Shown in pieces: positions 42,006 through 58,393 of a DNA stretch of 64,000 nucleotides. The notes below the pieces were generated by a model. The model was not told the origin of the DNA, searched no databases, and saw only the letters and a program-made list of their open reading frames with translations. The translations under genes were made by a program, and so were the position numbers. How positions within the stretch are numbered: the stretch's first letter is position 1; every line of letters starts with the position of its first letter. The DNA is taken from positions 77,659 through 141,658 of the forward strand of contig JAEOTR010000060.1 in the NCBI GenBank assembly GCA_016839705.1, written 5' to 3'. Source of the DNA: Promethearchaeota archaeon. Its GTDB lineage: Archaea; Asgardarchaeota; Lokiarchaeia; Sigyniarchaeales; SOKP01.

Positions 42006-42515
42006 CTAAGATAATTCAGATTTAGGAAGTTTTTCAGGTAGTTTAGTGGCTTCTAAGAGCTTTTTTACTTCATCCATATCAGGAGCCATTATCTCTGGCA
42101 AACCTAATTGTGTACGCCTTCTTTCTATAGCAGGTTGCATTGGAATTGCTTTTCCATGCTCTAACACTGTTGAAGCTTGACCTGTATAATGAACAGGTGC
42201 TTCACCTCTCTCTACACTCATATTTTTTAAAAGTGTAAAGATCTCTGTTAGCTCAACTTTTTGAGGACATACTTCATCACACGTGTCACATACAGTACAT
42301 CCCCAAATATTAAAAGCATTCTCTGGTCCAAATATTTTCTCTTTAAGACCTAATAGGGCATCTAAAATTAACCGCCTCGGGTTGTATCTACCCTCAGTAA
42401 CCTGCGCTACCGGACATGCTCCACTACAAGTTGCACATTGATAACAATATGCTAATGTATTACCAATCTCATTTCCAAGAATTTGGTTTCTGAAATCAAA
42501 ATCTATAGTTGCCAT
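42006..42515 (-). CDS. hdrC: Heterodisulfide reductase subunit C-like 2x[4Fe-4S] protein
   Basis: CYQCATCSGACP, YNPRRLI, IWGCTVCDTCDEVCPQ, RRTQLGLP. Confidence 0.88.
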   Translation of the reverse strand: MATIDFDFRNQILGNEIGNTLAYCYQCATCSGACPVAQVTEGRYNPRRLILDALLGLKEKIFGPENAFNIWGCTVCDTCDEVCPQKVELTEIFTLLKNMSVERGEAPVHYTGQASTVLEHGKAIPMQPAIERRRTQLGLPEIMAPDMDEVKKLLEATKLPEKLPKSELS

Positions 42516-46192: not shown

Positions 46193-46297
46193 TCAGATTT
46201 ATTAAGGATGGTTTACCTTTCGAAGGTTCCCCATCCCATCTCACTGTGATTTATGCATTTTTTGATTTCTTATGATATACTAAAATGATTTCATCAT
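46193..46297 (-). ncRNA. Candidate small RNA (box C/D-like ends, internal GC-rich hairpin)
   Basis: Minus strand: ATGATGA at 46297-46291, hairpin GGATGG-GGA-ACCTTCGAAAGGT-AAA-CCATCC at 46236-46206, CTGA at 46196-46193, then a long T-rich tract. Confidence 0.3.
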
Positions 46298-46409
46298 TAA
46301 AATCCATTTATAAATTCTAAATAAAACCAATAAAAGCAATTAAATATTTATTCCCACAATTATATAACAAAAACAAAAATAATTGTAAAACACACAAAAT
46401 TGAATTATC

Positions 46410-46796
46410 ATGACAAAAATAGAAGAACTCCAAGAATTTGGACTTGAAATCACCGATGACCTAAAAGAAGGCAAGGTTATCCTCGATGTATACACTGAAA
46501 TTTGAGTGAATATATCACTCAAACAGGATTGGTGTGGACCTTGCAAATTTGTTAGCCCTGTTCTAGAGAAACTGAAGAATGAAGGATTAATTAAGTTATT
46601 GAAAGAGGACTTAGATAAAAATCGACCACTCGGCGAAAGATTTGGAATTACTGCCATACCAACATTGCTTTTTTTCAAAAATGGTGAACTCTTAAACCAC
46701 CCGATAGAAGTTCAGGGCCAAATGCTAGTAAGAAATGGTGTGATGGTGGGGGCTGCCGGGGAGCCTATTTTAAGACAAATTATTGACCAGATGTAG
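46410..46796 (+). CDS. trxA: Thioredoxin, split by a putative 30-nt intron (exons 46410-46499 and 46530-46796; 118 aa spliced)
   Basis: Spliced frame reads MTKIEELQEFGLEITDDLKEGKVILDVYTE-WCGPCKFVSPVLEKL...FGITAIPTLLFFKNG; unspliced frame has TGA at 46503. Confidence 0.85.
46500..46529 (+). other. Putative tRNA-endonuclease-type (relaxed bulge-helix-bulge) intron in thioredoxin mRNA
   Basis: ACTG-AA/A-TTTGAGTGA-ATATA-TCACTCAAA-CAGG-AT/T: perfect 9-bp inner stem, 3-nt bulges, central ACTG:CAGG helix with one mismatch; removal restores the active-site context. Confidence 0.75.
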
Positions 46797-46871
46797 AATT
46801 TGGAAGGAATACATTACTTTTTTATTTCATTTTTTTATTTAAGTAAAAGGAATCTCATTTTAGCAAATTGA

Positions 46872-47120
46872 TCATCCCTTTCTTAGTAAGGTCGTAACTT
46901 TTCTATAATCTGCATCATTTTCAGTAATAACCGTTTTCAGGGCTTGAAATTTGTAGTGAAGCTTTGAGTTGTCTTCAGATTTTATCAATTTCTCAATTGA
47001 GTTAAGTTTGGAATTCAATTTTTTTCTAATTTTCCTTAATCTATAAGTTTCATATAGAAGATCTAATTGATTATAATCTTCAATTCTCTGAATTGGCTCT
47101 TTAAATTTAATTTCTGTCAT
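46872..47120 (-). CDS. Small hypothetical protein (helical)
   Basis: 82-aa ATG-initiated ORF in otherwise unoccupied space. Confidence 0.5.
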   Translation of the reverse strand: MTEIKFKEPIQRIEDYNQLDLLYETYRLRKIRKKLNSKLNSIEKLIKSEDNSKLHYKFQALKTVITENDADYRKVTTLLRKG

Positions 47121-47582: not shown

Positions 47583-48110
47583 TTGCATAATAGAAAGATG
47601 AATTATACAAGGGCAGATTTAACGCAAACGGATGCAACCATGAACCAGATGAGAAATGCTGTGTATGAGTTAGCTCGATTCATGGAGAAAAATGGGATAG
47701 CAGATTTAAAGAATAAATTAAGGAAGATGGGAAGAAATATTGCCAGAACCTACGTTCGATACTGGAAACCAACAAATCAAGTTATTGACTCCAATTTAAA
47801 AGACGTAATTACAACTATTTATCAAAAAATTCTCAACAGTTCTGTTTCTATTGAAGTTGTTGATAATGAAAATTTGGTTAAAGTTCAAGATTATAAATGT
47901 GCTTTATGCAAATATCAGTACGATGATATAGAAATAGCAGGGTGTGAGATTATCTTAGGAATGGTGTCTGAAATCATAAACCTTATCAATGGTGAAGTTA
48001 AAAATACCTCTTCTGTATTTATAGAACCATTAGAAGTAGCAGAATCTCGAGCATATGGGAATAAAGTCTGTATTCAAGTATACAAATACAAAATTGGTGA
48101 GGGGAGTTAG
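47583..48110 (+). CDS. V4R/TRAPP-Bet3-like domain protein
   Basis: LRKMGRNIA helix, CALC, GCEIILGMVSE, EVAESRAYGNKVC; start may be ATG 47598. Confidence 0.65.
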   Translation: MHNRKMNYTRADLTQTDATMNQMRNAVYELARFMEKNGIADLKNKLRKMGRNIARTYVRYWKPTNQVIDSNLKDVITTIYQKILNSSVSIEVVDNENLVKVQDYKCALCKYQYDDIEIAGCEIILGMVSEIINLINGEVKNTSSVFIEPLEVAESRAYGNKVCIQVYKYKIGEGS

Positions 48111-48112
48111 AA

Positions 48113-49582
48113 ATGGGTGCTTTTCAATGGTTAATGAAAAAAATTACGAAGGTTTTTGGGCATTCTACTAACGCTCTTTTTTACACACTGCTTTATAGGG
48201 AAATTCTTAAGGAAATAAACGTGATTACTAATAAAGAGGAAGATAGTCTTGCAATCCTTAAAGAAATTGGCAAGAGAGCTGCATACGAATCATGTGAACG
48301 CCATTCAAGCATCTTTAAATTTATGCCAGGATCTCCTAAAAAGATCTTAGAATATTTTGAGATTCTATGGGTCGTTGTATTTGGAAGAGAGTTAGACGAT
48401 TATTCTTATGAAGAAATTTCTAAAGAGGATTCAAAGTATAATGATTATATTTTAAGTATTAGCAAGTGTCCTATATGTGCAGGTTATGGTCAAGATACTG
48501 AAGATACTTTTGATTTTAGTAAAACAAAAAATGAGAAAACAGAAGGTTTAGCGTGTGGATTATGTGGGATGCTGGAAAGTGTTGCTAATTTTATACTAAA
48601 AATAAAGAGAAATGATTATAGAATTCAAATAATTGAACAAGACTGTATAGCAAAGGGTGGAGATTCACTACAATTTGTCTGTAAAATATATGACTATAAT
48701 CAATGGAAAGAACTTATGGATTCAAAGGATCCCCAGAAAGTTACAATAGACGCTTATTTTGGAGAACGGTTGGAAGAAGAAATTGTGCAAGAAACCAAAC
48801 TTGATATTATTGATAAACTCCAAGATGTTATATCAATTGATAAACTAGAAGAATACCTTGATGAGCCACTTGAAACCATCAAGGAACGTGTTTCTGATAT
48901 TATTAGAGATAAATTGAACATGGAACCTGACCATTTTTTTGACTATTTTAGAAATTATGAGGATGATATGATTAGAATAATTGGATATCTAGGAATTCAT
49001 CTTCTAAACGAGTATGGTGGAATATTAGAAAAATCTCTCAAAAATGAATGGCTTGCTAAAGTTTTTGGATATTTATTTAAGCAAGTTAAAGAAATGGTTT
49101 TATTATTCATTCCGTTAGATGTGATCCGAGATTACAATGAATTACTCGTAAATTTTCTAGAAGGGATGGCGCCAGAAGAAATGATTGATAATATTAAACA
49201 GATTACAGGAAGGGATACAATAAATTTGATTTTTGAGGGAGCCCAAATGGCTCTTGAAAATTTAGGAATTGCGTTCACTGAATTAAAAGAAAATGTGTGG
49301 GAAGAATTAAAGAAAGAAAGAGAAGATGGATTAGTTTCATCTGATTCAACCACAGTTGATAAAACTCGCGAAAGAGTCCCACATATTATCAATATACTTC
49401 AAGAAATTTTAATGATAATTACTGATATTCTCACTTTACCAATTCGTGTTTTAATTTCTGAAAGCCATTACGGGTTAAAAGCTGCAATAAATTCAGTTAT
49501 ATCTGAAGAAGAAGGATTATATGGTTCAATAAGGGAACGGTTTGATAACATCTTTGATCAGATCGAAGAGATTAGAAAGTAA
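48113..49582 (+). CDS. V4R/TRAPP-Bet3-like domain fused to an acidic helical C-terminal region
   Basis: LKEIGKRAA, LWVVVFG, CPIC, ACGLCGMLE, EQDCIAKGGDS. Confidence 0.65.
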   Translation: MGAFQWLMKKITKVFGHSTNALFYTLLYREILKEINVITNKEEDSLAILKEIGKRAAYESCERHSSIFKFMPGSPKKILEYFEILWVVVFGRELDDYSYEEISKEDSKYNDYILSISKCPICAGYGQDTEDTFDFSKTKNEKTEGLACGLCGMLESVANFILKIKRNDYRIQIIEQDCIAKGGDSLQFVCKIYDYNQWKELMDSKDPQKVTIDAYFGERLEEEIVQETKLDIIDKLQDVISIDKLEEYLDEPLETIKERVSDIIRDKLNMEPDHFFDYFRNYEDDMIRIIGYLGIHLLNEYGGILEKSLKNEWLAKVFGYLFKQVKEMVLLFIPLDVIRDYNELLVNFLEGMAPEEMIDNIKQITGRDTINLIFEGAQMALENLGIAFTELKENVWEELKKEREDGLVSSDSTTVDKTRERVPHIINILQEILMIITDILTLPIRVLISESHYGLKAAINSVISEEEGLYGSIRERFDNIFDQIEEIRK

Positions 49583-58262: not shown

Positions 58263-58393
58263 AGCCCGGTAGTGTAGGATAATACAAAAAATTGTATTAT
58301 ACAGAATGGACAAGCATTTAGGGCTTTGAACCCTGAGACCACGGTTCGAAAATTTACGAATTCGTTCGTCAATCGAAAATCCGTGCCGGGCTA
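58263..58393 (+). tRNA. tRNA-Gln(UUG) with two introns (58278-58306 at 15/16; 58351-58379 at 59/60)
   Basis: Acceptor AGCCCGG/CCGGGCT, anticodon arm TAGGG-CT-TTG-AA-CCCTG, T stem CACGG/CCGTG; removing both hairpin introns restores GTGTAGTGGACAAGCAT and TTCGAAT; CCA not encoded. Confidence 0.92.

What the first reader, a model, noticed from the sequence alone, without database searches (positions are those of the whole stretch)
46410..46796. Thioredoxin gene interrupted by a 30-nt tRNA-type (bulge-helix-bulge-like) mRNA intron
Seen: from ATG 46410 the frame reads ...KVILDVYTE-I*VNISLKQD-WCGPCK, so ten extra codons with a TGA separate the thioredoxin beta strand from the WCGPC active site. The insert folds as ACTG [AAA] TTTGAGTGA-ATATA-TCACTCAAA CAGG [ATT]: a perfect 9-bp inner stem, a 4-position central helix (3 pairs plus an A-G mismatch) and two 3-nt bulges; outer exon pairing (TATAC/GTGTG) is weak. 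Known: the archaeal splicing endonuclease cuts after the second base of each bulge. Applied here, that removes exactly 46500-46529 and yields ACT GAA TGG TGT GGA CCT TGC (TEWCGPC), a 118-aa thioredoxin. The tRNA-Gln introns in this window have nearly the same size (29 nt), and one has the same relaxed geometry. Archaeal mRNA introns are very rare (crenarchaeal cbf5 is the classic case). Inference: an mRNA micro-intron system in an Asgard archaeon that gene callers miss.
Basis: partly seen in the sequence, partly recalled or inferred. Interest (0 to 1): 0.95.

Follow-up and report, generated by a model that had tools for sequence, protein, structure and literature searches.

The report
tRNA-type mini-intron in Asgard thioredoxin
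A thioredoxin gene of an Asgard archaeon is broken just before its active site by a 30-base hairpin that evolves like the introns normally cut out of tRNAs, so its messenger RNA very probably has to be spliced; the papers I could search show this inside a coding sequence for only one other archaeal gene (cbf5).

Summary
Confirmed. A 30-nt insert (46500-46529) with an in-frame TGA and a 9-bp hairpin splits a thioredoxin gene. Cutting by the archaeal splicing-endonuclease (EndA) rule gives TEWCGPC, 118 aa, the junction of the closest intact orthologues.

The same-site insert occurs in 6 of 51 genus genomes, two other genera and many metagenome contigs (Promethearchaeia). Across 13 versions 96% of pairs hold, with compensatory changes in the stem and in the exon-intron helix. 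Exons stay under purifying selection. One relative has a 32-nt frameshifting version without UGA, which argues against selenocysteine read-through.

The genome holds at least six more well-formed inserts (EF-2 family, dodecin, two small GTPases, RNase HII, iscU), a tRNA-Gln intron of the same relaxed shape, RtcB, and an EndA with the broad-specificity loop.

Caveats: the motif is relaxed (3 of 4 pairs, no outer helix), a competing fold is predicted 1.9 kcal/mol more stable, and no RNA data were available, so splicing is inferred.

The scan reported this class before on other DNA (66 notes, at least 38 genomes), including this intron in another genome.

The parts
46410..46499 (+). Thioredoxin exon 1 (30 codons, ending ...VYTE)
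   Evidence: aligns to intact orthologues
46500..46529 (+). Predicted 30-nt intron
   Evidence: only 30-nt deletion that gives the motif; recovered without the motif against an intact orthologue
46494..46497 (+). Exon half of the central helix (ACTG; first base unpaired)
46498..46500 (+). 5' three-base bulge; predicted cut between 46499 and 46500
   Evidence: sequence plus the EndA rule stated in PMC2738675
46501..46509 (+). 5' arm of the 9-bp intron stem
46503..46505 (+). In-frame TGA inside the intron, invariant in all 30-nt versions aligned
46506..46508 (+). GTG used by gene callers for a 96-aa truncated call; not conserved (GAG in G109)
46510..46514 (+). 5-nt loop, the most variable part of the insert
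46515..46523 (+). 3' arm of the intron stem
46524..46527 (+). Intron half of the central helix (CAGG; last base unpaired, G or C in relatives)
46528..46530 (+). 3' cut region; predicted cut between 46529 and 46530; no contiguous outer helix
46530..46796 (+). Thioredoxin exon 2 (WCGPC active site to TAG)
   Evidence: PF00085 E 4e-14
58263..58393 (+). tRNA-Gln(TTG) with two 29-nt introns (58278-58306, 58351-58379); internal comparison for the relaxed geometry

Best explanation
The insert is a real intron of the archaeal tRNA type inside a protein-coding mRNA. The pre-mRNA folds so that the end of exon 1 pairs with the end of the intron below a 9-bp hairpin. The splicing endonuclease EndA cuts after 46499 and after 46529, and a ligase, most likely RtcB, joins the exons to give a 118-aa thioredoxin. 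Unspliced messages stop at the intron's UGA. It is one of several such 25-34-nt introns in this genome and its relatives, which are gained and precisely lost over evolution. Shown: the insert, its conservation, covariation, selection on the exons, presence of the enzymes. Inferred: folding in the cell, cleavage, ligation, and the direction of gains and losses.
For: (1) The EndA rule picks the one deletion whose junction codons equal those of the nearest intact orthologues G032 and G025. (2) Same-site insert in G000, G002, G018, G027, G067, G069, in G109 and G146 of other genera, and in metagenome contigs. (3) 13 distinct versions: 96.2% of cells paired, 0 of 500 shuffles as high, 31-44% when partners are slid; U-A to C-G double changes in the stem (two sequences) and in the exon-intron helix (G109), plus three G-U changes. 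(4) Carrier exons: pN 0.13, pS 0.72, similar to non-carriers at 0.09 and 0.64. (5) Motif-free comparison with 2.36 Mb of G006: 7 of 8 frame-breaking inserts of 22-45 nt carry the motif against 1 of 7 in-frame ones (Fisher p 0.01; chance 0.75-7.6%; two of the eight were positive controls). (6) The same anatomy at 2 sites in an EF-2-family gene, 4-5 in dodecin and 3 in thioredoxin, each time complementary to the local exon. (7) The window's tRNA-Gln intron has the same relaxed shape. (8) EndA keeps the K44 and R46 of the Aeropyrum loop that confers broad specificity (PMC3241643); RtcB is intact.
Against: No RNA, peptide or enzyme evidence was obtained. [quoted passage not shown] The central helix is not in the predicted best fold: probability 0.08 here, 0.01-0.05 in five relatives, 0.71 in G109. 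The double change in the central helix rests on G109 in the alignment (G146, not aligned, has the same C-G pair), and the shuffle control ignores relatedness. No EndA beta subunit was found. Another thioredoxin-domain gene exists, so this one need not be essential.
Confidence: 0.88

Rival explanations
1. The ribosome, not a nuclease, skips the 30 nt (programmed bypassing over a stop and a hairpin), or another RNA-processing route removes them.
For: A stop followed by a hairpin resembles known bypass signals (own knowledge of T4 gene 60). The BHB-type helix is not the best predicted fold.
Against: Take-off and landing codons do not match at most sites: GAA/GAT here, GAA/CAA in G002, GTA/GAA in G109, GAT/AAA in EF-2. 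Covariation lies in the helix that EndA reads. Boundaries follow the bulge rule at every well-defined site.
Confidence: 0.04
2. The gene is dead or yields only a 96-aa product from the GTG at 46506, and the hairpin is an inactivating or regulatory insertion that is never removed.
For: Gene callers report the 96-aa form. Another thioredoxin-domain gene is present.
Against: Exon 1 and exon 2 remain under purifying selection across carriers with saturated silent sites. The GTG is not conserved. The short form loses the strand before the active site (Pfam match from position 29 rather than 17). The same inserts break RNase HII, an EF-2-family gene and iscU in conserved motifs.
Confidence: 0.05
3. 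The UGA is read as selenocysteine and the protein carries ten extra residues.
For: The genome has tRNA-Sec and apparent selenoproteins. The TGA is invariant in all 30-nt versions while its pairing partner varies.
Against: G146 has a 32-nt frameshifting insert without UGA at the same site. The UGA does not align with a cysteine of any homologue. Variation in the insert follows base pairs, not codons. Sister inserts use TAA or TAG or shift the frame.
Confidence: 0.02
4. Assembly artefact or a recent miniature mobile element.
For: Short hairpins are typical of both.
Against: Identical in a separately assembled contig; present with divergent sequence in many species; no 16-mer of it elsewhere in the genome; no target-site duplication.
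Confidence: 0.01

Closest known systems
cbf5 pre-mRNA intron of Crenarchaeota (Desulfurococcales, Sulfolobales; PMC2738675)
   Same: Short intron (16-44 nt there) in a coding sequence, at a catalytic motif, often with a relaxed BHB, cut after the second bulge base by a broad-specificity EndA, with lineage-specific losses.
   Different: cbf5 is one gene, one site, an RNA-modifying enzyme, and its splicing is shown experimentally. Here the host is a metabolic gene in Asgard archaea, there are three sites in this gene family and several introns per genome, one relative has a 16-nt micro-exon, and splicing is only inferred.
Non-canonical tRNA introns of Asgard archaea (10.64898/2026.10.13.758758)
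   Same: Same motif classes, repeated gains, unknown route of arrival; the window's own tRNA-Gln introns match in size and shape.
   Different: That study treats tRNA genes only; the word mRNA does not occur in it.
BHB intron in the 5' UTR of Haloferax HVO_1309 (PMC7714728)
   Same: EndA substrate in an mRNA.
   Different: 46 nt, untranslated region, does not interrupt a reading frame.

Membership tests
Strict BHB intron (hBHBh' or HBh') | All four central pairs form | tested here: not met
   Three pairs plus A.G or A.C in all versions
Strict BHB intron (hBHBh' or HBh') | 3-nt bulge on the 3' side closed by an exon helix | tested here: not met
   No contiguous outer helix; at best a loop of about 6 nt before exon pairing
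Relaxed BHB-type EndA intron | Three of four central pairs and a 3-nt 5' bulge | tested here: met
Relaxed BHB-type EndA intron | Intron-side helix | tested here: met
   9 bp, 94.9% of cells paired, double and G-U changes
Relaxed BHB-type EndA intron | Cut after the second bulge base restores the sequence of intron-less orthologues | tested here: met
   Junction codons equal those of G032, G025 and L270
Relaxed BHB-type EndA intron | Host encodes EndA with the broad-specificity loop, and a ligase | tested here: met
   EndA aligns to A. pernix alpha subunit with K44 and R46 kept; RtcB
Relaxed BHB-type EndA intron | Second (beta) EndA subunit of the heterotetramer | tested here: inconclusive
   Not found with two Pfam models or phmmer; genome 93% complete
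Relaxed BHB-type EndA intron | Removed from the RNA in the cell | not testable with these tools
   No RNA run was listed for this stretch
Relaxed BHB-type EndA intron | Cleaved by EndA in vitro | not testable with these tools
   Needs a bench assay
Selenoprotein (UGA recoding) | UGA aligns with Cys or Sec of homologues and the frame is kept | tested here: not met
   UGA lies in an insert absent from homologues; G146 version shifts frame and has no UGA
Selenoprotein (UGA recoding) | SECIS element in the 3' UTR | tested here: inconclusive
   My pattern found none, but it also failed on two apparent selenoprotein genes
MITE or other repeated mobile element | Multiple copies and target-site duplication | tested here: not met
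   No other 16-mer match in the genome; no duplication in the sequence
Group I or group II self-splicing intron | Ribozyme core of hundreds of nucleotides | tested here: not met
   30 nt; no Rfam match in the window
Thioredoxin (PF00085) | Domain match and WCGPC motif | tested here: met

The most novel reading that the evidence does not exclude
Promethearchaeia carry a genome-wide, still spreading population of spliceosome-independent mRNA micro-introns that is also used for control. Length-3n introns are kept under selection for an in-frame stop so that unspliced messages abort, and in thioredoxin the splice-competent helix competes with an exon-exon fold, which would make splicing a switch on enzyme output.
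Probability: 0.2. Interest if true: 0.93.

Novelty: new variant of a known kind. Interest (0 to 1): 0.8.

Why it matters
In the papers I could search, splicing inside an archaeal coding sequence is documented only for cbf5 (PMC2738675; PMC7714728 calls it the one example), and a search for Asgard mRNA BHB splicing since 2024 returned nothing. If these inserts are spliced, the closest prokaryotic relatives of eukaryotes routinely splice ordinary mRNAs with the tRNA machinery, with intron gain, precise loss and even micro-exons. That bears on how exon-intron gene structure could arise without a spliceosome, and on why eukaryotic EndA and RtcB also act on mRNA. It also means Asgard annotations contain truncated or mis-read core genes (96-aa and 128-aa thioredoxins, 694-aa EF-2 frames). 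The claim is cheap to test.

Tried and rejected
RNA evidence: no RNA holder was listed for 46250-46950; this is no evidence either way, and read laying could not be used. A search for an assembled spliced product among public proteins found no 118-aa protein identical to this genome's exons. The nearest (107 of 118, P0046) and two short-contig candidates differ at 73-83 of 357 nt, so they are intact genes of other species.

A pure motif scan of the genome was too noisy to count introns (19,366 raw hits, 37 after filters, most false). ARAGORN and Rfam miss the tRNA-Gln until its introns are removed. My SECIS pattern failed its positive control and was set aside. No EndA beta subunit was found. 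Bacterial promoter and terminator scans gave chance-level counts. One alignment (A2) used a wrong reference and was discarded.

The census is therefore a lower bound and cannot see introns shared with G006. The thioredoxin tree rests on 348 nt of one gene and cannot fix the order of gains and losses.

Full report
Observation. The frame from ATG 46410 reads as a thioredoxin with ten extra codons, including TGA at 46503-46505, between VYTE and WCGPC. The insert holds a perfect 9-bp hairpin (z -4.2, none of 200 shuffles as stable). No site with three Watson-Crick central pairs and nine perfect stem pairs turned up in 956,868 sampled 30-nt positions of the genome. Of 19 possible 30-nt deletions, several restore the frame, but only 46500-46529 gives the central helix plus stem, and it yields TEW rather than TDW. 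A contig assembled separately from a public run is identical over 887 nt.

Organism and machinery. Carriers are Promethearchaeia (Lokiarchaeia-type Asgard) genomes. The genome encodes one EndA catalytic subunit whose best structural relative is the Aeropyrum pernix alpha subunit. It keeps K44 and R46 of the loop that lets that enzyme cut non-canonical motifs (PMC3241643). RtcB is intact. No beta subunit was found. The window's tRNA-Gln(TTG) at 58263-58393 has two 29-nt introns, and removing them gives a clean tRNA. The D-loop intron has three central pairs, an outer mismatch and a 9-bp stem, as in thioredoxin. Its anticodon arm occurs once in the assembly, so the cell presumably splices this geometry (inference).

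Same-site relatives. The insert is at the same position in 6 of 51 genus genomes with a match (G000, G002, G018, G027, G067, G069) and in G109 and G146 of two other genera. Of 145 public proteins retrieved, 52 are 96-aa or 128-aa calls that show insert-derived residues. In 13 distinct versions, 96.2% of cells pair, none of 500 shuffles reaches this, and sliding the partners drops it to 31-44%. The loop varies freely. A U-A pair becomes C-G in the stem in two sequences. In G109 a silent exon change is matched by a change in the intron half of the central helix. These counts are of related sequences and overstate independence. Carrier exons remain under purifying selection (pN 0.13, pS 0.72). 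The closest intact genes have exactly the predicted junction. In the gene tree, intact genes are nested among carriers and one clade of genus carriers is rejected (AU p 0.014). This fits one gain with several precise losses, though a short single-gene tree cannot exclude repeated gain or transfer.

Other sites and genes. The same thioredoxin family has 30-32-nt inserts right after WCGPC in six genomes and 25-26-nt frameshifting ones near residue 66 in four. G146 has two introns around a 16-nt exon that encodes the active site. A motif-free comparison with 2.36 Mb of G006, plus two control loci, recovered thioredoxin and dodecin and found frame-breaking inserts in an EF-2-family gene, a small GTPase and a NUDIX gene of this genome, and in uL11, an UppS-like gene and a third gene of G006. 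Seven of eight frame-breaking inserts carry the motif against one of seven in-frame indels (p 0.01; chance 0.75-7.6%). The EF-2 gene has introns at two sites in 15 and 4 genomes, with 97.6% of cells paired at the first. Dodecin has four clear sites and one weak one. Leads from other readers of this genome were checked and hold for RNase HII (30 nt), iscU (27 nt) and a second small GTPase (29 nt); an activase insert has the hairpin but an off-register helix. The genome thus has at least seven well-formed cases and two weaker ones.

Mechanism. Most likely EndA binds the helix between the exon end and the intron end, cuts after 46499 and 46529, and RtcB joins the exons (inferred from PMC2738675 and PMC7714728). 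Unspliced messages stop at the UGA after 31 codons. The A of that UGA never changes although its pairing partner is T, A or C, and every length-3n intron I examined has a stop. This suggests selection for the stop itself, but some loci were chosen because their frames were short, so the point is not established. The main weakness is thermodynamic: an exon 1-exon 2 fold is predicted 1.9 kcal/mol more stable and leaves the central helix at probability 0.08, against 0.99 for the EF-2 site and 0.75 for tRNA-Gln. Splicing may be slow or depend on enzyme binding. A regulatory role is speculation.

Rivals. Selenocysteine is unlikely because the G146 version shifts frame and lacks UGA. A dead gene is unlikely given selection on both exons. 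Ribosomal bypassing lacks matched codons. Artefact and repeated element are excluded.

Comparison with what is known. It works like the cbf5 intron of Crenarchaeota and fits the relaxed class of EndA substrates. It fails the strict BHB definition, and removal from RNA was not testable. Literature searches found no report of such introns in Asgard coding genes; the library is incomplete, and PMC2738675 mentions unconfirmed predictions in other archaeal genes. Earlier notes of this scan describe the same class in at least 38 genomes, and some report spliced RNA for other genes. I did not check those RNA claims and do not count them as support.

Verdict. A real feature, very probably a spliced tRNA-type intron in a coding sequence (0.88), and one case of a multi-gene system. 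New variant of a known kind; interest 0.8.

Noticed in passing
G000:C82:11187-11216 (+), L053 688-717: 30-nt canonical insert with TAA in an EF-2-family gene; same site in 15 genomes, a second site in the P-loop in 4.
   Followed up: yes
G000:C29:83095-83064 (-), L054: Dodecin split by a 32-nt frameshifting insert; relatives have inserts at four other positions, G066 has two.
   Followed up: yes
G000:C97:90099 (-) and G000:C82:13897 (-): Two small-GTPase paralogues are interrupted at the same point before the P-loop (30 and 29 nt) by inserts of different sequence.
   Followed up: partly
G000:C25:55280 (+), C85:74326 (+), C87:33239 (-), C56 near 55469 (+): Further inserts in RNase HII and iscU (canonical), a NUDIX gene (weak stem) and an activase (9-bp hairpin, helix off register).
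   Followed up: partly
G006:C1:1129379 (+), 1505072 (+), 1621977 (-), 1410049 (-): The relative has its own 28-30-nt frame-breaking inserts in uL11, an UppS-like gene and two other genes.
   Followed up: partly
L202 (G146:C270:14600-15400): Thioredoxin with two introns (32 and 31 nt) around a 16-nt exon that encodes WCGPC.
   Followed up: yes
window 58263-58393: tRNA-Gln(TTG) with D-loop and T-loop introns, missed by ARAGORN and Rfam until spliced in silico.
   Followed up: yes
L211 (G079:C174:4150-4900): Thioredoxin paralogue with TGA in place of the first active-site Cys: either a selenocysteine thioredoxin or a broken gene. My SECIS test was uninformative.
   Followed up: partly
L209 (G155:C52:12300-13050): Orthologue with an altered active site and an in-frame TAG but no insert; looks like a true pseudogene.
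   Followed up: no
window 47583-49582 and 42006-42515: Two coupled genes without significant Pfam match lie downstream (other readers call them V4R/Bet3-like; not tested). A 4Fe-4S (HdrC-like) gene lies upstream and sits next to the thioredoxin in relatives (L270, L272).
   Followed up: no
G000:C56:35901-36494 (L031 1180-1773): Only one EndA gene was found; if the beta subunit is truly absent, a homomeric enzyme with the specificity loop would be unusual.
   Followed up: partly
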